IMG/VR virus record: IMGVR_UViG_2617270976_000003
Location: 1 to 13,188 of that record
Origin: a virus
Taxonomy: Duplodnaviria > Heunggongvirae > Uroviricota > Caudoviricetes
Strand: one strand, 5' to 3'
Length of the DNA: 13,188 nucleotides
The notes below the pieces were generated by a model, which was not told the origin of the DNA, searched no databases, and was given only the letters and a program-made list of their open reading frames with translations. A program made the position numbers and the translations under genes. Position 1 is the first letter of the stretch; every line of letters begins with the position of its first letter. Positions 1 through 11,202 of the stretch are shown here, one piece after another.

Positions 1-1
1 C

Positions 2-118
2 CAGAAAATCATTGATATGGCCATGAATGGCGTTGGATGCCGGGCAACAGCCCGCATTATGGGCGTTGGCCTCAACACGATTTTACGTCACTTAAAAAAC
101 TCAGGCCGCAGTCGGTAA
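2..118 (+). CDS. insA: IS1 InsA, C-terminal part only (5' end off-window)
   Basis: Frame from position 2 translates to [38 protein letters not shown], stop taa at 116-118; matches the InsA C-terminus as recalled. Confidence 0.85.
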
Positions 119-540
119 CCTCGCGCATACAGCCGGGCAGTGACGTCATCGTCTGCGCGGAAATGGACGAACAGTGGGGCTATGTCGGGGCTAAATCGCG
201 CCAGCGCTGGCTGTTTTACGCGTATGACAGTCTCCGGAAGACGGTTGTTGCGCACGTATTCGGTGAACGCACTATGGCGACGCTGGGGCGTCTTATGAGC
301 CTGCTGTCACCCTTTGACGTGGTGATATGGATGACGGATGGCTGGCCGCTGTATGAATCCCGCCTGAAGGGAAAGCTGCACGTAATCAGCAAGCGATATA
401 CGCAGCGAATTGAGCGGCATAACCTGAATCTGAGGCAGCACCTGGCACGGCTGGGACGGAAGTCGCTGTCGTTCTCAAAATCGGTGGAGCTGCATGACAA
501 AGTCATCGGGCATTATCTGAACATAAAACACTATCAATAA
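37..540 (+). CDS. insB: IS1 InsB (transposase catalytic part; expressed in vivo as the InsAB' frameshift fusion)
   Basis: 167-aa [28 protein letters not shown]...HYLNIKHYQ, which I recognise as the IS1 InsB sequence; it sits in the -1 frame relative to insA. Confidence 0.9.
94..100 (+). other. IS1 programmed -1 ribosomal frameshift slippery heptamer (A6C) producing the InsAB' transposase
   Basis: Sequence aaaaaac at 94-100 inside cttaaaaaactcagg, near the insA 3' end and overlapping the insB frame; this is the established IS1 recoding site. Confidence 0.8.
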
Positions 541-560
541 GTTGGAGTCATTACCTGTTA

Positions 561-1247
561 GTGGATGACTGTCCACGATGTGGATCACAAAAAATAGCGT
601 TTGATGTTAATGGGCTGAATTGCACTAGGGTTTACAATGCATTGGGCGGGGGTAAAACATACGAGTACGAGGTCTATTGTGTTTGCCGAGAGTGTCATAA
701 AACGACAATGTTTCTTTGCAGACCTTTAACGAAAAATAAAACTTTAGATGGCTATAATTGGGAAAGTGGAATATTCGGCTTAAAGGAAGTTGCAGAGGTT
801 GTTAGGCCTATATCACCGGCAGACTTAGCAGTAGAGGAGCCACCAGAGTTCTTACCTGAGCATATCAATAGTGCATATGAGGAAGGGGCGAAATGTTTGG
901 CTATAGGTTGTTATAATGCAGCAGCAACCATGTTTAGGCTTTGCCTTGATTATGCCACAAAAGGACTTCTTCCTGATGGGGAGCAAGGGCCTGCGCAAAA
1001 AATAAGGAGAAGCCTAGGGTTAAGAATGGAGTGGTTATTTGATAATCATCTACTGCCTGAAGCTTTAAGGGAACTAGCTGAATGCGTTAAAGATGACGGA
1101 AATGATGGAGCGCATGAAGGTATTTTGGATAAAGCTGCTGCTGAGGATCTTGAAGATTTTACCTATCTTTTTTTAGAACGGCTTTACACTGAACCTCAAC
1201 GCCTTATCGAAGCCAAGACAAGGCGTGAACAAAGAAGAAACAAATAA
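561..1247 (+). CDS. Cargo protein: N-terminal C4 zinc ribbon plus C-terminal domain with a GN..AH motif (DUF4145/HEPN-like?); candidate abortive-infection or defence effector
   Basis: 228-aa ORF in visibly AT-rich DNA between the IS1 end (555) and the portal gene stop (1256). Cys at residues 4, 7, 42, 45 (CPRC ... CREC) suggests a zinc ribbon. C-terminal ECVKDDGNDGAHEG (nt 1089-1115) resembles the GN..AH signature I associate with DUF4145-type domains. The start is uncertain: GTG at 561 is the first start after the IS1 end and the frame stays open upstream into IS1, so the native 5' end may have been removed by the insertion. Confidence 0.75.
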   Translation: MDDCPRCGSQKIAFDVNGLNCTRVYNALGGGKTYEYEVYCVCRECHKTTMFLCRPLTKNKTLDGYNWESGIFGLKEVAEVVRPISPADLAVEEPPEFLPEHINSAYEEGAKCLAIGCYNAAATMFRLCLDYATKGLLPDGEQGPAQKIRRSLGLRMEWLFDNHLLPEALRELAECVKDDGNDGAHEGILDKAAAEDLEDFTYLFLERLYTEPQRLIEAKTRREQRRNK

Positions 1248-1255
1248 GTTCGGAA

Positions 1256-2290
1256 TTATTCTTCTGAAAGAATATAGGGCGTAAATTTAATCACTTCTTC
1301 GCCCAGCCAGTCGTTCAGCTCTTGTAGCCTTTTTTGCAAGGGCGTTAATTCATTACGTACAAATACGCGACTGGCCTTCTCCACATCCCCAAACCCTCCA
1401 ACATTATTAGGCATAATCCCCATCATTTGCGGCGGCACGCGGTGCGCAGCCATCATGTCGTCGCGGCTGACATTTTTGATATTCAAAAACTCATCCTTCG
1501 CCGCGACTTCTGACAATGGGATGATCTGAAGCCCGTCTTTTTTGCCGTTAGGCGAGTACATAAACAGGTTGCGGAAGTTGCCTGGACCTTTGGCGCTTTT
1601 CATCGCATTGCGGAGGTTGTTCACATCCTCCTGGTTTTGCGCGGCATCGGTCATGTACATGATAAAGCCCGCATGACTGCCGTTAATGTAATACTTGCGA
1701 CGGAACAGCGTGGCGGACTCGTTGAGCAGGGCTGACGGAATGGCAGAAAGATAACCGGGCAGGCCGTAGATCTCCTGATTAATATCCGGTTCCATCAGAT
1801 GAAAAATGCTGCCTTTCGTGAACTGATACGGCTGGGTTGTCATACCGTATTGCACAAACCAGTAGGTATCCAGGTCTAACCCGCGTCGGGTGTATTTTGC
1901 CAGTGCAGGCTCAAGGGCGATAACTTCACCGAAGCGGTTCGTGCGTTTCTCCAGGTAGGCGTTACCAAAAACCAGATAGTCCTGCACAAAACGCGAAAAA
2001 GCCTGCTGGCTGAGCAGCGGGTGAGGGATGTAGGTGCTGGTCAGAATGTTGCACTTTACTGCAATCGGGGAACTATGATGCACGGCAGCGCGGAAGGTGC
2101 GCGCCAGTCCGTCAAAGCTGACGGGCGGCTCATACCAGCGGTCCATCTGTACGCATTCCACATAATCCAGCAGTTCTCGGCGGTCCAGAACAGGAACGGG
2201 ATCGCCGAAGCTGAATGCTTCGGCTGTAGTTTGACTTTTAAGCTGGATCTGTTTCGTCGCCGCAGCGCGGTTCTTCTTACTCTTTCCCAT
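1256..2290 (-). CDS. Q: Portal (capsid portal vertex) protein, P2 gpQ-like
   Basis: 344 aa from the ATG at 2290-2288, the same length as P2 gpQ; immediately downstream of the large terminase with a TGATG stop/start overlap, as in P2. The ORF track extends it by one TTG codon to 2293. Confidence 0.9.
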   Translation of the reverse strand: MGKSKKNRAAATKQIQLKSQTTAEAFSFGDPVPVLDRRELLDYVECVQMDRWYEPPVSFDGLARTFRAAVHHSSPIAVKCNILTSTYIPHPLLSQQAFSRFVQDYLVFGNAYLEKRTNRFGEVIALEPALAKYTRRGLDLDTYWFVQYGMTTQPYQFTKGSIFHLMEPDINQEIYGLPGYLSAIPSALLNESATLFRRKYYINGSHAGFIMYMTDAAQNQEDVNNLRNAMKSAKGPGNFRNLFMYSPNGKKDGLQIIPLSEVAAKDEFLNIKNVSRDDMMAAHRVPPQMMGIMPNNVGGFGDVEKASRVFVRNELTPLQKRLQELNDWLGEEVIKFTPYILSEE

Positions 2291-4056
2291 CAAAAAATCT
2301 CCACAATATTGCTGGTATTGGCGGATTCGCCCTGCAGCGGTTCGTTAAACAGTGCGTGCATCGTTGCCCAGGCCAGATCGGCGTGGCTGGCTTCTTCGCT
2401 GCGGCTGGCTTCATAGGTCGGGCGGTTGCCACTGGCGGTGGTGGCGCGACGGATTGCCATAAAGGACTGCGCTATGTCGGTGTGTCCGGCGTCAAACTCC
2501 AGACGGCGGTGGCTGATAATGTCGTAGGCCTTGAGTACCAGGGCGTTTTTAACGTTGGGGTTGTAGACAAACTCCCGGACGGCAGGAAAAAACGCTTTCA
2601 CGTTCTCGTAAACCCCGTGACCAACGCCGGTTGAGTCGATACCGATATAGGTCACGTTGTACTGTTCGGTCAGTTTTTTGATGGCGTCAGCCTGGGCGCG
2701 GAAGTCCATTCCGCGCCACTGGTGACGCTCAAGAATGCGGAACTTACCGCCCGGCACGGCTGGCGGCGCCACCACCACGCATCCGGCGCTGTCGCCGTTC
2801 TGCGTACCTTTCGCCGGGTCATATCCGATCCACACTTCGCGCCAGCCAAACGGGCGCAGGGCCAGTGCATGAAAGTCGGTCCAGACTTCCCAACTGTCCA
2901 CCATGCACGCCTGCAGCTCGCTGAGCGGGAACACGGACGCGAGATCGTCCACGAACTCGCACATCAGCAGGTTCTGGTATTCGTCCGGGCTGTACTCCAT
3001 GCGCAACTGGTCAAGGTCGAACAGGTTACAGCCGCCGCGCACCGCATCTTCCACGGTGACTATCTGGCGGTACTGCCCGTCTGCGCACAGCAGGCCGGGG
3101 GCCAGATTGCTGTGGGACAGGTCGATGTCCACCTTATCGGCTTTGTTGCGCCCTCGGTTGAACAGCGCACCGGACCAGAACGGATAAGCACTGTGTGTCA
3201 GGCTGGATGGCGTGGAAAAATAGGTTTGTCGCCATTTTTTGTGAATAGCCATACCGGAAGCCACTTTGCGCAGCTCCTGGAATTTCGGTATCCAGAAATA
3301 TTCATCCAGATACAGGTTGCCGTGGTAACTCTGGGCCGTGCGGGCATTGGTGCCGAGGAAGTAAAGCGTGGCCCCGTTAGGAAGCACCATCGGATCGCCT
3401 TTCAGCTCCACCTCGACTTCTTTGGCGAAGTCGATGATGTACTGCTTAAAGACGTGGGCCTGTGCCTTACTGGCGGAAAGGAAAATCTGGTTACGTCCGG
3501 TCAGCAGGGCGTCAATCAGGGCTTCACGGGCAAAGTAAAAGGTCGCGCCGATCTGGCGAGACTTCAGCAGGTTGCGGATGCGATTGGTTTTTCCGGCTTC
3601 CCACCAGTGGCGCTGGTAGTTGAACATGGAGGAATGGAAGATTTCTTCCAGCTTCTCAATCTGTTCATCGGTGAAAACATTCTTTTCCGGCTGACGGCGC
3701 GGCCCTTTGTTGCGGTTGGCGACGTTAGGGTTTAAGTCGGCTTCGTTGCCGCCATTGTTAAACTTGCCGATCCGCGCGTGGCGCTCCGACTGGCGCGCCA
3801 GCAGGTCAATTTCTTTGAAATCTTTCCCTTCTTTGTGCTCCTTCATAATGAGCTGGCAGTAGCGGGCGGCGGTGGTGAGCTGCATCTGATCCAGCGGCCC
3901 ATAGTCACCCCACTTGTCGCGTTTTTTCCAGCTGTGAACGGTTGCAACTTTCTCGCCCAGCATTTCAGCAATGCGGGCTACGCGGTATCCCTGAAAGTAC
4001 AGCAGCATGGCCTGCCGACGGGGATCGAGATCTGCGGGTGTCAGTGTGGTGTTCAT
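2290..4056 (-). CDS. P: Terminase large (ATPase) subunit, P2 gpP-like
   Basis: 588-aa ORF (P2 gpP is ~590 aa), divergent from the scaffold/capsid operon as in P2. The long plus-strand ORF inside it is antisense noise. Confidence 0.9.
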   Translation of the reverse strand: MNTTLTPADLDPRRQAMLLYFQGYRVARIAEMLGEKVATVHSWKKRDKWGDYGPLDQMQLTTAARYCQLIMKEHKEGKDFKEIDLLARQSERHARIGKFNNGGNEADLNPNVANRNKGPRRQPEKNVFTDEQIEKLEEIFHSSMFNYQRHWWEAGKTNRIRNLLKSRQIGATFYFAREALIDALLTGRNQIFLSASKAQAHVFKQYIIDFAKEVEVELKGDPMVLPNGATLYFLGTNARTAQSYHGNLYLDEYFWIPKFQELRKVASGMAIHKKWRQTYFSTPSSLTHSAYPFWSGALFNRGRNKADKVDIDLSHSNLAPGLLCADGQYRQIVTVEDAVRGGCNLFDLDQLRMEYSPDEYQNLLMCEFVDDLASVFPLSELQACMVDSWEVWTDFHALALRPFGWREVWIGYDPAKGTQNGDSAGCVVVAPPAVPGGKFRILERHQWRGMDFRAQADAIKKLTEQYNVTYIGIDSTGVGHGVYENVKAFFPAVREFVYNPNVKNALVLKAYDIISHRRLEFDAGHTDIAQSFMAIRRATTASGNRPTYEASRSEEASHADLAWATMHALFNEPLQGESANTSNIVEIF

Positions 4057-4102
4057 GGCACAAACCTACAGCCTTGAATGAAGGCTTTCCCCGCCTGCGG
4101 TT

Positions 4103-4120
4103 TGTGTGGTTGTCGGTACA
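4103..4120. promoter_or_regulatory. Candidate late-promoter activator (Ogr/Delta-type) binding element, TGT-N12-ACA, in the P/O divergent region
   Basis: tgtgtggttgtcggtaca fits the TGT-N12-ACA partial dyad reported around -55 of P2-family late promoters; its centre is ~87 bp upstream of the O start codon, compatible with a rightward promoter carrying a ~30-nt leader. Motif match only. Confidence 0.4.
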
Positions 4121-8797: not shown

Positions 8798-9191
8798 AGC
8801 AGTGCCTTATGTCCGCAATAACCCGGATAAGCTGCATCTGTTTGTGGATAACGGTTCGCTGGTTGCCACGGGGGCCAGCTCCATGTCATGGGAGTACCGT
8901 TATACCCTCAACGTGGTGATTGAGGATTTCAGCGGCGACCAGAATCTGCTGATGGCCCCGGTTTTGCTGTGGCTGCGTGATAACCAGCCCGATGCCATCA
9001 ATAATCCGGCGTTACGGGAAAAGTTATTCACCTTTGAGGTGGATATTCTGCGCAACGATGTCTGTGATATCAGCCTCAACCTGCAACTGACGGAACGTGT
9101 GCTGGTCAGCACTGACGGAAGTGTGTCGAGCGTTGAAGCAGTAGCGGAACCCGATGAACCTGAAGAAATGTGGACGGTGAAACGTGGCTGA
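8760..9191 (+). CDS. R: Tail completion protein, P2 gpR-like
   Basis: Start placed at GTG 8760 (AGGAG 8 nt upstream); the ORF-track TTG at 8739 adds 7 non-homologous residues. FVDNGS, RYTLNVV, LLWLR.NQPD and LTER.LVS resemble gpR. Confidence 0.85.
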   Translation: MNKPQSLRHALNKAVPYVRNNPDKLHLFVDNGSLVATGASSMSWEYRYTLNVVIEDFSGDQNLLMAPVLLWLRDNQPDAINNPALREKLFTFEVDILRNDVCDISLNLQLTERVLVSTDGSVSSVEAVAEPDEPEEMWTVKRG

Positions 9192-9636
9192 ACTGCAGAA
9201 GGTGGACGACTGGCTGAGTGCTTTGCTGGCGAATCTGGAACCAGCCGCAAGAAGCCGAATGATGCGCCAGCTGGCGCAGGAACTGCGCCGGACACAGCAG
9301 CAGAATATCAGGATGCAGCGCAATCCAGATGGCAGCAGTTATGAGCCGCGCAGGGTAACAGCACGCAGCAAGAAGGGGCGCATCAAACGTCAGATGTTTG
9401 CAAAGCTGCGCACCACAAAATACCTGAGAACTGCCGCCAGCGCGGATTCTGCCAGCGTACAGTTTGAAGGTAAGGTACAGCGTATTGCCCGTGTTCATCA
9501 CTACGGTCTGCGCGATCGCGTCAGTCCAAAGGGGGGAGTCATTAAGTATCCATCCCGAAAATTGCTGGGTTTAAATGAACATACTGAAAATGAAGTAAGA
9601 GATTTACTTTTAAAGTATTTATTGATGAAAAATTAG
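9184..9636 (+). CDS. S: Tail completion protein, P2 gpS-like
   Basis: GTG start overlapping the R stop; 150 aa, as P2 gpS; DWLS.L..NLEP and ARVHH.GLRDRV resemble gpS. The last ~30 codons are encoded by markedly AT-rich DNA (see findings). Confidence 0.88.
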   Translation: MAELQKVDDWLSALLANLEPAARSRMMRQLAQELRRTQQQNIRMQRNPDGSSYEPRRVTARSKKGRIKRQMFAKLRTTKYLRTAASADSASVQFEGKVQRIARVHHYGLRDRVSPKGGVIKYPSRKLLGLNEHTENEVRDLLLKYLLMKN

Positions 9637-9641
9637 AATGT

Positions 9642-10172
9642 TTACGCTCTTAATAAACTTAAATAACTTTTTATGCTTTGGCAAAAAGGGAAAAGGTCTA
9701 TTTTAATTTTCCAGTTTTTTTTGTTTTGAACCCCAGAAGCAATAATAGAACCGTCCCAATATTTTATTCCATTTTTGCCGGTCTTTTTTGTTAACTCAAA
9801 ACTTAATGCGTGAATAATTTTATTGCAGCATTCGCGTATAGAATCTTTAACATGACCATCTATAACAAAAAGTATATTTTCATGTTCTTCAAATGCTTCT
9901 TTCTCAGGTGAGTAATCTGGGTTCCACTCATGTTCACTAGTGTCTTGGAGAATTCGTAGTTTTGTACAAAGGCTAATAAGATTGTTGCTAATGGTATATT
10001 CCAACCATCCGTTGTACGATAACTCCTCCATTTCAAATTCAGTTACTATAGAACCATCATATACTTTCTGTGTGGAATATATACGCTGTAAATAAAATTC
10101 AGATGAACAGCATAATTGCTCAATTATTCTTGCGTGTTCTTCTATAGCGTAATAATCAATTGGATGGCTCAT
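9642..10172 (-). CDS. Hypothetical protein of unknown function in a very AT-rich island; candidate defence or accessory cargo
   Basis: 176 aa from the ATG at 10172-10170 (MSHPIDYY...), with an AAAGG RBS about 7 nt upstream. The ORF-track start at 10211 has no RBS and overlaps the dyad element at 10204-10221. Stop is 5 bp from the S stop (convergent). No homologue recognised; contains RECCNKIIH (R113, N117, H121; nt 9810-9836). Confidence 0.75.
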   Translation of the reverse strand: MSHPIDYYAIEEHARIIEQLCCSSEFYLQRIYSTQKVYDGSIVTEFEMEELSYNGWLEYTISNNLISLCTKLRILQDTSEHEWNPDYSPEKEAFEEHENILFVIDGHVKDSIRECCNKIIHALSFELTKKTGKNGIKYWDGSIIASGVQNKKNWKIKIDLFPFCQSIKSYLSLLRA

Positions 10173-10203
10173 TCTTTTACCTTTCTTTGATTGGAATTGT
10201 ATT

Positions 10204-10221
10204 TGTGTCATTTACCACACA
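10204..10221. promoter_or_regulatory. Candidate late-promoter activator site (TGTGT-N8-ACACA inverted repeat, fits TGT-N12-ACA) between the cargo gene and V
   Basis: tgtgtcatttaccacaca is a perfect 5-bp inverted repeat and fits the P2-family late-promoter dyad. Caveat: its centre is only ~55 bp upstream of the V start codon, which leaves no room for a leader if the -55 rule holds, so spacing is atypical. Confidence 0.35.
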
Positions 10222-10267
10222 AGGACGTATTGATGCCATAGATTCAAGGTCCGTGCAACCTAACCCT

Positions 10268-10846
10268 ATGAACGCACAACTAACCGAAATCATGCGCCTT
10301 ATCACCAACCTGATCCGCACTGGTGTAGTCACCGAAGTGGACCGGGAAAACTGGCTTTGCCGGGTGAAAACGGGCGAGCTTGAAACCAACTGGATCAGCT
10401 GGCTGACGCTGCGTGCCGGGAATGCCCGCACATGGTGGCGACCATCGGAAGGTGAGCAGGTGGTGCTGCTGAGTCTGGGCGGCAATCTGGAAACTGCCTT
10501 TGCGCTGCCCGCTGTCTATTCGAATCAGTTCGCACCACCGTCGACGTCGGCAGACGCCTGCGTGACAGAACATCCTGACGGCGGCTGGTTTGAATACGAA
10601 CCCACTACCGGGCGCTGGTATGTCAGGGGCATCAAATCAATGGTCATTGAGGCCGCTGACAACATCACCATGAAAACCAGTGAGTTTGTACTGGAGGCTG
10701 ACCGCACGCGCATTAACAGCGAAGTGGTGATCAATGGTGGCGTTACCCAGGGCGGCGGAGCGATGAGTTCTAACGGGATCGTGGTTGATGCGCATCAGCA
10801 TACTGACGTCCTGAAAGGCGGCGACACAACCGGAGGCCCGGTATGA
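10268..10846 (+). CDS. V: Baseplate central spike protein, P2 gpV-like
   Basis: Start set at the ATG at 10268 (MNAQLTEIMRLITNLIRTG), which aligns with the gpV N-terminus as recalled; the ORF-track start at 10160 lies inside the reverse cargo gene and is rejected. RAG..RTWW.PS.GEQV....GG.L.TAF.LP.YS matches gpV. Confidence 0.88.
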   Translation: MNAQLTEIMRLITNLIRTGVVTEVDRENWLCRVKTGELETNWISWLTLRAGNARTWWRPSEGEQVVLLSLGGNLETAFALPAVYSNQFAPPSTSADACVTEHPDGGWFEYEPTTGRWYVRGIKSMVIEAADNITMKTSEFVLEADRTRINSEVVINGGVTQGGGAMSSNGIVVDAHQHTDVLKGGDTTGGPV

Positions 10847-11202
10847 CGCTTTATAGCGGGATGAACAATACCAGCGGTAAAGCCATTACTGATATTGATC
10901 ATCTGCGCCAGTCGGTGCGGGACATTTTGCTGACGCCGCAGGGTAGCCGCATTGCCCGTCGGGAATATGGTTCCCTGCTGTCGGCACTGATAGACCAGCC
11001 ACAAAATCCGGCATTACGCCTGCAGGTCATGTCGGCAGTGTATGTGGCGCTGAGTCGCTGGGAGCCACGGCTGACGCTGGATTCCATCACCATTAACAGC
11101 AATTTTGACGGTTCAATGGTGGTGGAGCTGACCGGGCGGCGTAATAACGGTGTGCCTGTTTCCCTTTCCGTATCAACAGGAGCAGAGAATGGCAGTGATT
11201 GA
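10843..11202 (+). CDS. W: Baseplate wedge protein (gp25/lysozyme-like fold), P2 gpW-like
   Basis: 119 aa; ATGA overlap with V; GGAGG RBS; REYGSLL and DQPQ.PAL resemble gpW. Confidence 0.88.
   Translation: MTLYSGMNNTSGKAITDIDHLRQSVRDILLTPQGSRIARREYGSLLSALIDQPQNPALRLQVMSAVYVALSRWEPRLTLDSITINSNFDGSMVVELTGRRNNGVPVSLSVSTGAENGSD

What the first reader, a model, noticed from the sequence alone, without database searches (positions are those of the whole stretch)
10173..10267. Late-promoter-like dyad sits in the short divergent region shared by the cargo gene and V
The 95-bp region between the cargo gene start (10172, minus) and the V start (10268, plus) contains TGTGT-N8-ACACA (10204-10221), matching the P2 late activator site pattern. 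The cargo gene's own promoter must lie in this same stretch, so activator binding at late times could modulate the cargo gene as well as turn on V-W-J-I-H. The spacing to the V start is shorter than expected for a -55 site, so the insertion may have reshaped this promoter.
Basis: partly seen in the sequence, partly recalled or inferred. Interest (0 to 1): 0.45.

Follow-up and report, generated by a model that had tools for sequence, protein, structure and literature searches.

The report
P2-type late promoter of gene V
The inverted repeat is the ordinary binding site for the phage's late-gene activator in front of the tail gene V, and its "too short" spacing is the normal one, because in phage P2 the V transcript is annotated to start at V's start codon.

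Summary
The window is a prophage identical over window 556-1300 and 9100-10900 to Escherichia phage Cartapus, a P2-like phage of E. coli LF82. The dyad TGTGT-N8-ACACA is exactly at 10204-10221.

It is the counterpart of the P2 pV late promoter. The P2 reference record annotates an activator site centred 55.5 nt upstream of the V-operon transcription start, and that start is the first base of the V start codon. The Cartapus dyad centre (10212.5) is also 55.5 nt from the V ATG (10268).

Cargo-free relatives have the same 46-nt gap between dyad and ATG. So do about ten unrelated AT-rich cargo modules in the same S-V slot. All keep a -10-like A and T at a fixed offset from the dyad, an ATG start and, except phage 186, no ribosome-binding site.

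Cartapus encodes an Ogr-family activator. Its P/O and F promoters carry the same dyad with the same geometry.

The idea that the activator also affects the divergent cargo gene is plausible but untested. Published LF82 RNA-seq shows the cargo transcribed independently of V. No convincing cargo promoter can be identified.

This is a known kind of element and of low interest.

The parts
10204..10221 (.). Inverted repeat TGTGT-N8-ACACA (= TGT-N12-ACA), extended form TTTGTGT...ACACAA. Inferred binding site of the Ogr-family late activator for promoter pV. Centre at 10212.5.
   Evidence: Same position as the P2 'activator binding site; activation of pV promoter' feature. Conserved at 54.5-56.5 nt from the V ATG in 13 of 15 classes.
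10256..10261 (+). Inferred -10 hexamer CAACCT of pV (A at -11, T at -7 if transcription starts at 10268).
   Evidence: A at dyad centre +44.5 and T at centre +48.5 in 12 of 15 classes; the other 3 show the same with a 1-nt shift. GCAACCT is shared with cargo-free relatives.
10268..10270 (+). V start codon ATG and inferred transcription start (+1 = A at 10268), giving a leaderless V mRNA.
   Evidence: The P2 record places the V-operon transcription start on the first base of the V CDS. All 15 classes use ATG. 14 of the 15 have no Shine-Dalgarno-like motif in -20..-4; phage 186 has a GAGG inside that stretch.
10268..10846 (+). Gene V (baseplate spike), first gene of the V-W-J-I-H late operon.
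   Evidence: RefSeq: baseplate spike, P2 gpV homologue.
9642..10172 (-). AT-rich cargo gene (176 aa, phrog_18838, unknown function), divergent from V, in the slot that P2 orf30 occupies.
   Evidence: Transcribed independently of V and S in LF82 lysogens (supplement of PMC9928086).
10196..10201 (-). Weak candidate -10 (TACAAT on the minus strand) for the cargo gene. Its partner -35-like TTGTGT (10222-10217, 15-nt spacer) is the right half of the dyad. Not statistically supported.
   Evidence: score 5.6 against a shuffle-best median of 8.1. Not conserved in the Salmonella orthologous module.
10226..10238 (+). Block CGTATTGATGCCA between the dyad and the -10. Conserved in the Salmonella orthologous module and partly in SEN8. 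Role unknown (about -42..-30 of pV).
4103..4120 (.). Second late-activator dyad of the window, TGTGTGGTTGTCGGTACA, in the divergent P/O region. Serves as an internal control for the geometry.
   Evidence: P2 annotates one shared activator site for pP and pO. Conserved in SEN8 and ST13-OXA48phi12.1.
9515..10254 (.). Approximate extent of the AT-rich replacement module relative to cargo-free relatives. It covers the last ~30-40 codons of S, the cargo gene, the dyad and most of the pV core.
   Evidence: GC falls to 0.31-0.34. Identity to phage 500465-1 falls from about 0.9 to about 0.5 from 9514-9545 onward and resumes at GCAACCT before the V ATG.

Best explanation
The dyad at 10204-10221 is the binding site of the phage's Ogr-family zinc-finger late activator at promoter pV. 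This promoter is the Cartapus counterpart of the P2 pV promoter.

Late in lytic growth the activator binds the repeat, centred about 55 bp upstream of the transcription start. It then recruits host RNA polymerase through the alpha subunit to a promoter with a poor -35 and a minimal -10 (CAACCT, 10256-10261). Transcription starts at or within a base of the A of the V ATG (10268). The V-W-J-I-H mRNA is therefore leaderless, which is why the dyad looks too close to the gene.

The AT-rich cargo module arrived by replacement of the segment from the 3' end of S to just before the V start. It brought its own copy of the dyad at the obligatory distance, so the promoter geometry is unchanged.

Shown here: sequence, position, conservation of geometry, presence of the activator gene, and equivalence to the annotated P2 features. 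Inferred: activator binding, the exact transcription start, and leaderless translation in Cartapus.
For: (1) The P2 RefSeq record annotates the pV activator site at 10239-10266 (centre 10252.5) and the V-operon transcription start at 10308, the first base of the V CDS. Orf30 lies on the minus strand between S and V. The Cartapus centre 10212.5 is also 55.5 nt from the V ATG at 10268.

(2) PMC3152322 states that Ogr binds inverted repeats centred at about -55 and needs contact with the RNA polymerase alpha subunit. PMC3931495 gives TGT-N12-ACA as the consensus for PP, PO, PV and PF. PMC4633059 lists P2 among leaderless genes, citing the P2 late-promoter paper.

(3) Cargo-free relatives have S stop, then the dyad TGTATCAGCACTGATACA, then 46 nt, then the V ATG. 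This is the same 46 nt as in Cartapus.

(4) Among 90 loci falling into 15 upstream classes, 13 have an exact TGT-N12-ACA centred 54.5-56.5 nt from the ATG. This holds although about ten cargo modules are otherwise unrelated in sequence.

(5) Anchored on the dyad centre, an A at +44.5 and a T at +48.5 (which would be -11A and -7T) occur in 12 of 15 classes. All V genes start with ATG and lack a Shine-Dalgarno motif.

(6) Cartapus encodes an Ogr_Delta zinc-finger protein (Pfam E 9e-21, CX2CX22CX4C) after gene D.

(7) The same TTTGTGT...ACAA dyad, with a -10-like element at the same offset (shifted by 1 nt at pO), precedes O, P and FI in the same genome.

(8) In class L070/L077 an intrinsic-terminator-like hairpin with a T-run (by eye) fills the space between dyad and ATG. 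This is compatible only with a start at the ATG.
Against: No transcription start, activator binding or activator dependence has been measured for Cartapus. The P2 start was mapped with 1985 methods and could be off by a base or two.

The -10 hexamer is very weak: CAACCT matches the consensus at 2 of 6 positions. A simple weight-matrix scan scores an alternative (TAGATT at 10239-10244, start near 10251) slightly higher, 6.1 against 5.6.

The motif by itself is not enriched in the window. P2, 186 and SEN1 do not have a perfect TGT-N12-ACA at this position.
Confidence: 0.86

Rival explanations
1. An add-on to the main explanation. The cargo gene's sigma-70 promoter overlaps the dyad, so occupancy by the activator and by RNA polymerase at pV shuts the cargo gene off late. 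The 95-bp region would then act as a switch between lysogenic cargo expression and late tail-gene expression.
For: The cargo ATG is only 31 nt from the dyad, so its -35 and spacer must overlap the dyad or the pV core. In other cargo classes and in P2 orf30 the gap is 18-22 nt.

The best candidate is TTGTGT-N15-TACAAT, which uses the right half-site as its -35.

LF82 RNA-seq shows the cargo at log2(FPKM+5) 5.1-6.0 in conditions B1, B6 and MB1, while V, W and S are at 2.3-3.3. So a promoter independent of late transcription exists. In MB6 the cargo drops to about 4.5 while V rises to about 4.2 (supplement of PMC9928086).
Against: No candidate promoter exceeds chance: the score is 5.6 against a median best score of 8.1 in shuffles, and the consensus scan found none on the minus strand. 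TACAAT is not conserved in the Salmonella orthologous module.

The RNA-seq trend is small and population-averaged, and I do not know whether the libraries were strand-specific.

Antisense read-through from the O operon could lower cargo expression late without any role for the dyad, since no terminator was found between S and the cargo.
Confidence: 0.3
2. The dyad is the activator site, but V has a short leader. Transcription would start about 17 nt upstream (-10 TAGATT at 10239-10244, start near 10251), with the dyad acting from about -38.
For: TAGATT is a better -10 match than CAACCT, and this combination scores highest on the plus strand (6.1).
Against: No element at that offset is conserved in the other 14 classes, whereas the A/T pair 11 and 7 nt before the ATG is. 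There is no Shine-Dalgarno motif in the putative leader. P2 annotates the start on the ATG with the site at -55. In class L070 a terminator-like hairpin would sit inside such a leader.
Confidence: 0.07
3. One activator site drives both directions, as at P2 pP/pO, so the cargo gene would be a late-activated gene.
For: P2 annotates a single activator site serving divergent pP and pO, with starts 56 and 55 nt from its centre. The repeat is symmetric.
Against: A start 55 nt to the left of the centre would be near 10157. That is 15 nt inside the cargo ORF, whose next in-frame Met is about 50 codons downstream. The homologues' N-termini fix the start at 10172. The cargo is transcribed in lysogens while the late genes are silent.
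Confidence: 0.04
4. The dyad is something else: a CRP-type site, an RNA hairpin or terminator, or a chance palindrome.
For: TGTGTCATTTACCACA matches TGTGA-N6-TCACA at 8 of 10 positions. The repeat can form a 6-7 bp hairpin.
Against: CRP-like matches at 2 mismatches are at chance level: 6 found against 5.8 expected. The relatives conserve the N12 spacing of TGT/ACA, not the CRP pattern.

The hairpin is no more stable than shuffles (z = -0.65 and -1.13), there is no T-run after the repeat, and no terminator was found. There is no Rfam match. Positional conservation across unrelated modules excludes chance.
Confidence: 0.02

Closest known systems
Bacteriophage P2 late promoter pV (NC_001895: activator binding site 10239-10266, transcription start 10308)
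   Same: Same genomic place: after S, before V-W-J-I-H, and back-to-back with a nonessential AT-rich minus-strand gene (orf30). Same 55.5-nt distance from the site centre to the first base of the V ATG. Similar GTGCAAYCT element before the ATG.
   Different: The Cartapus repeat is a perfect TGT-N12-ACA, whereas the P2 pV repeat is imperfect (TGT-N11/N14-ACA). The cargo gene is unrelated to orf30. P2 has a terminator between S and orf30 and Cartapus has none. Nothing has been measured for Cartapus.
P2 pP/pO shared activator site, and the Cartapus P/O and F late promoters
   Same: Same dyad family (TTTGTGT...ACAA) and about the same distance from dyad centre to the -10-like element (pO fits with a 1-nt shift).
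   Different: Those promoters, apart from possibly Cartapus P, have 30-40-nt leaders with Shine-Dalgarno sequences. pV has none.
Phage 186 promoter of orf32 (the P2 V homologue), activated by protein B
   Same: 69-bp S-V gap with a TGTGTG half-site 56.5 nt from the ATG and CATTCT at the -10 offset.
   Different: Only the left half-site matches TGT/ACA. My recollection that this promoter is called p32 and is B-dependent was not checked here.
Leaderless phage mRNAs such as lambda cI from PRM
   Same: What it works like: an activator-dependent promoter whose transcript begins with the AUG (PMC4633059 lists lambda and P2 together).
   Different: Different activator, different site position, and an early/lysogenic gene rather than a late one. 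There is no homology.
Variable 'orf30' slot between S and V of P2-like phages
   Same: Unrelated AT-rich accessory genes replace one another at this position (PMC6823313).
   Different: The published P2 defence-hotspot analysis concerned the gpA-gpQ locus, not this one (PMC9122126). That each S-V module carries its own dyad and pV core was seen here, and I did not find it stated in the papers I could read.

Membership tests
Ogr/Delta/B-dependent late promoter of P2-like phages | Inverted repeat TGT-N12-ACA | tested here: met
   TGTGTCATTTACCACACA at 10204-10221. Consensus as given in PMC3931495.
Ogr/Delta/B-dependent late promoter of P2-like phages | Repeat centred about 55 bp upstream of the transcription start | not testable with these tools
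   No transcription start data exist for Cartapus. Indirect support: the centre is 55.5 nt from the V ATG, which is the annotated start in P2, and a conserved -11A/-7T pair sits at the matching offset.
Ogr/Delta/B-dependent late promoter of P2-like phages | Position in front of a late morphogenetic operon, conserved in relatives | tested here: met
   Directly upstream of V-W-J-I-H. Present at the same distance in 13 of 15 classes, including cargo-free phages.
Ogr/Delta/B-dependent late promoter of P2-like phages | The phage encodes an Ogr/Delta-family C4 zinc-finger activator | tested here: met
   Cartapus record 22568-22786 (outside the window): Pfam Ogr_Delta E 9e-21, CX2CX22CX4C.
Ogr/Delta/B-dependent late promoter of P2-like phages | The same site occurs at the other late promoters of the genome | tested here: met
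   P/O dyad at window 4103-4120, and F dyad at record 15568-15585 with CAACAT at the same offset.
Ogr/Delta/B-dependent late promoter of P2-like phages | Transcription depends on the activator and on the RNA polymerase alpha C-terminal domain | not testable with these tools
   Requires experiments. The requirement is documented for P2 (PMC3152322).
Leaderless mRNA (P2 gene V type) | The 5' end of the mRNA coincides with the A of the AUG | not testable with these tools
   Annotated for P2. Inferred for Cartapus from identical geometry.
Leaderless mRNA (P2 gene V type) | AUG start codon and no Shine-Dalgarno sequence upstream | tested here: met
   ATG in all 15 classes. No SD-like motif in -20..-4 in 14 of them; phage 186 has a GAGG inside that stretch.
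CRP binding site | TGTGA-N6-TCACA match above chance and conserved in relatives | tested here: not met
   2 mismatches. 6 such matches in the window against 5.8 expected. The pattern is not kept in relatives.
Intrinsic terminator / structured RNA | Stable G+C-rich hairpin followed by a T-run, or a match to a known RNA family | tested here: not met
   -6.5 and -6.9 kcal/mol, z = -0.65 and -1.13. No terminator. No Rfam hit.

The most novel reading that the evidence does not exclude
The S-V slot of this P2-like clade is an exchange site. Each accessory-gene module carries its own late-activator dyad and pV core, joined to the phage exactly at the leaderless +1/ATG of V. Because the module's own promoter must overlap that dyad, activator and polymerase occupancy at pV would switch the accessory (possibly defence) gene off as tail genes switch on.

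A related possibility is that the terminase gene P of this clade is also leaderless. Its ATG (4056) lies 55.5 nt from the P/O dyad centre, with TAGGTT at -12..-7.
Probability: 0.25. Interest if true: 0.4.

Novelty: already known. Interest (0 to 1): 0.15.

Why it matters
The practical value is for annotation. In P2-like prophages a TGT-N12-ACA repeat 55 nt before the V ATG marks pV, and V should be treated as leaderless. A missing ribosome-binding site or a 'short' spacing there is not an anomaly.

The comparison also shows that accessory-gene modules in the S-V slot, several of which match candidate defence proteins, are swapped together with the promoter region while its geometry is strictly kept. 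That makes the slot a convenient natural system for asking how a prophage accessory gene and an essential late operon share about 100 bp of control DNA. That question is not answered here.

Tried and rejected
1. Hairpin or terminator reading of the dyad. Folding is no better than shuffles and there is no T-run.

2. Known RNA family. There is no Rfam match in 9400-10500.

3. CRP-like site. Matches are at chance level and the pattern is not conserved.

4. Identifying the cargo promoter. The consensus scan found nothing on the minus strand. A rough weight-matrix scan gave a best score below the shuffle median. Footprinting against the Salmonella and Enterobacter orthologous modules was inconclusive.

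5. Bidirectional activation of the cargo gene, as at pP/pO. Rejected on distances.

6. Naming the cargo protein.
- No Pfam, NCBIfam or PADLOC hit, and only phrog_18838 of unknown function.
- No meaningful PDB sequence hit.
- The only phage records carrying it are the two Cartapus records.
- The afdb50 library was unavailable.

7. Literature. The original P2 promoter papers and the 2016 P2 review are not in the held library. I therefore relied on the P2 RefSeq features and on secondary statements.

8. LF82_789, listed as an expressed Cartapus moron, is CARTA_47 and not this cargo gene.

Full report
**What the window is**

Window 556-1300 and 9100-10900 are 100% identical to Escherichia phage Cartapus (NC_070909.1 / OV696611.1; Peduoviridae, Elveevirus). 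Cartapus is the P2-like prophage of E. coli LF82. Window coordinate = record coordinate + 387. The gene order is the P2 late region: Q and P on the minus strand, then O through S, a minus-strand hypothetical gene, then V, W, J, I and H.

**The observation**

The minus-strand cargo ORF can start at 10211 or at 10172. RefSeq uses 10172. Fourteen of 15 homologues begin MSHP..., which fixes 10172. TGTGTCATTTACCACACA lies at 10204-10221.

By itself the motif is not unusual:
- TGT-N12-ACA occurs 5 times in the window against 3.25 expected.
- The longer TGTGT-N8-ACACA form, with up to 1 mismatch, occurs once against 0.41 expected.

**What it corresponds to in P2**

The P2 reference record annotates the following:
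- S at 8915-9367, followed by a terminator.
- Orf30, nonessential, on the minus strand at 9439-10224.
- 'activator binding site; activation of pV promoter' at 10239-10266.
- 'transcription start site for V operon' at 10308, which is also the first base of the V CDS.

The centre of the P2 site (10252.5) is therefore 55.5 nt from a start that coincides with the ATG. In Cartapus the dyad centre (10212.5) is 55.5 nt from the V ATG (10268). The architecture is the same in both phages: S, an AT-rich minus-strand accessory gene, the activator site, then V.

Published statements agree with this:
- Ogr binds inverted repeats centred at about -55 and must contact the RNA polymerase alpha subunit (PMC3152322).
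- TGT-N12-ACA is the consensus of PP, PO, PV and PF (PMC3931495).
- P2 is listed with lambda and Tn1721 as a source of leaderless genes, citing the P2 late-promoter paper (PMC4633059).

**Did the insertion reshape the promoter?**

No. Close relatives without any cargo (phages 500465-1, 4LV2017, KP12; V 95-99% identical) have a 68-bp S-V gap. It runs from the S stop, through 4 nt, to TGTATCAGCACTGATACA, then 46 nt, then the ATG. Cartapus also has 46 nt between the dyad and the ATG.

I then collected 80 IMG/VR loci with V at least 96% identical, and added P2, 186, Fels-2, SEN8, SEN1 and ST13-OXA48phi12.1. The 75 nt before V fall into 16 groups; SEN1 is essentially the same as 186, so I count 15 classes.
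- About ten classes are different AT-rich modules (S-V gaps of 547 to 1886 bp, 32-37% G+C) with no sequence similarity to each other.
- Thirteen of 15 classes carry an exact TGT-N12-ACA centred 54.5-56.5 nt before the A of the ATG.
- The exceptions are P2 (imperfect repeat, experimentally annotated) and 186/SEN1 (left half-site only).

With roughly 1e-3 chance per independent class (my arithmetic), this is selection and not coincidence.

**Core promoter and leaderless start**

When the classes are aligned on the dyad centre, the only other strongly conserved columns are an A at +44.5 and a T at +48.5. These occur in 12 of 15 classes, and the other three show the same pair shifted by one base. 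They are the two key positions of a sigma-70 -10 hexamer (-11A, -7T) if transcription starts 55.5 nt from the centre, that is, on the ATG.

In Cartapus the hexamer is CAACCT (10256-10261). Every class uses ATG, and none except 186 has a Shine-Dalgarno-like motif in -20..-4. By contrast O and FI have GGAG and AGGAGG. In class L070/L077 a terminator-like hairpin with a T-run fills the space between dyad and ATG. That arrangement works only if the start is at the ATG.

**The activator and the other late promoters**

Cartapus encodes a 72-aa Ogr_Delta zinc-finger protein after gene D (Pfam E 9e-21, CX2CX22CX4C). It lies outside the window.

| Promoter | Dyad | Coordinates | Downstream features |
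|---|---|---|---|
| P/O | TGTGTGGTTGTCGGTACA | window 4103-4120 | shared divergent region |
| F | TGTGTGAATAACGGTACA | record 15568-15585 | CAACAT at the same offset, about 30-nt leader with AGGAGG |

P2 annotates a single site for divergent pP and pO, with starts 56 and 55 nt from its centre.

Homologues at 74% and 60% identity sit in the same S-V slot of Salmonella and Enterobacter P2-like prophages. Each has its own TGT-N12-ACA, 46-47 nt before V.

Published LF82 RNA-seq values are log2(FPKM+5), with a floor of 2.32. The data come from the supplement of PMC9928086.

| Gene | LB (BLB) | B1, B6, MB1 | MB6 |
|---|---|---|---|
| Cargo (CARTA_14) | 2.7-3.5 | 5.1-6.0 | 4.4-4.6 |
| V | 2.7-2.8 | 2.3-3.1 | 4.1-4.3 |
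| W | 2.3-2.7 | 2.3-2.6 | 2.3 |
| S | 2.3-3.1 | 2.4-3.3 | 3.2-3.6 |

The cargo gene therefore has a promoter that works in the lysogen without late transcription. I could not locate that promoter:
- The consensus scan finds nothing on the minus strand.
- The best weight-matrix candidate is TTGTGT(10222-10217)-N15-TACAAT(10201-10196), whose -35 is the right half of the dyad. It scores below the shuffle median.
- That candidate is not conserved in the Salmonella module.

With the cargo ATG only 31 nt from the dyad, any promoter in the intergenic region must overlap the activator site or the pV core. Interference at late times is therefore plausible, but it is not shown. Activation in the pP/pO manner does not fit, because a start 55 nt to the left of the centre would fall inside the ORF. 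No terminator separates S from the cargo gene, unlike in P2. Late O-operon read-through antisense to the cargo gene is thus an alternative route to late down-regulation.

**Rivals rejected**

- Hairpin or terminator: z = -0.65 and -1.13, and no T-run.
- Rfam: no match.
- CRP-like site: chance level.

**Verdict**

The supposed anomaly is the known leaderless pV geometry, and the cargo-modulation idea remains an untested inference. This is a textbook element in a P2-like prophage, so interest is low.

The by-products worth noting are:
- Accessory modules in the S-V slot carry their own dyad and pV core.
- Several of those modules match candidate defence proteins.
- The terminase gene P of this clade may also be leaderless.

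Noticed in passing
window 4056-4120 (minus strand for P): The ATG of the terminase gene P (4056) lies 55.5 nt from the centre of the P/O dyad (4111.5), with TAGGTT at -12..-7 (4068-4063). P may therefore be leaderless in this clade. P2 has an annotated 23-nt leader. The P N-terminus aligns with P2 P, and the spacing is conserved in SEN8 and ST13-OXA48phi12.1.
   Followed up: partly
window 1-555: 99.8% identical to IS1. It abuts the prophage at Cartapus record position 169, so record bases 1-168 are missing here. The window therefore comes from a strain other than the one behind the deposited Cartapus record.
   Followed up: no
window 561-1247 (+): DUF4145-domain gene next to portal gene Q, in the cos-proximal gpA-gpQ accessory hotspot described for P2-like phages (PMC9122126). 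In LF82 it (CARTA_1) rises to log2 9.2-9.6 in macrophage conditions.
   Followed up: no
L008-L087, region between S and V: At least ten unrelated AT-rich modules occupy the S-V slot in phages whose V is at least 96% identical. Some match candidate defence proteins: PDC-S59 (E 2e-197, L084), an ApeA-like region (L075), a TIR domain (L070), and FRG/PDC-S15 (SEN8, V 86% identical). Most are divergent from V, with their start 18-31 nt from the dyad.
   Followed up: partly
L070 / L077, about 2455-2500: In the one class with a plus-strand cargo gene (TIR protein), a terminator-like hairpin (GCCTGCCA...TGGCAGGC followed by TTTTT) lies between the dyad and the V ATG, inside the pV spacer.
   Followed up: no
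window 9515-9636 (3' end of S): The last 30-40 codons of S are AT-rich and only about 50% identical in DNA to cargo-free relatives, while still encoding a similar peptide. The module's left junction is therefore inside S, as if the module was imported from a more AT-rich P2-like phage.
   Followed up: partly
window 9636-9642: The S stop and the cargo-gene stop are 5 nt apart with no terminator, whereas P2 has an annotated terminator there. Late O-operon transcription probably reads antisense through the cargo gene.
   Followed up: no
[not shown]
   Followed up: partly
window 10226-10238: CGTATTGATGCCA, between the dyad and the -10, is conserved in the Salmonella orthologous module. It recurs as GTATTGATG in SEN8, which carries a different cargo gene. 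It sits at about -42..-30 of pV and its role is unknown.
   Followed up: no
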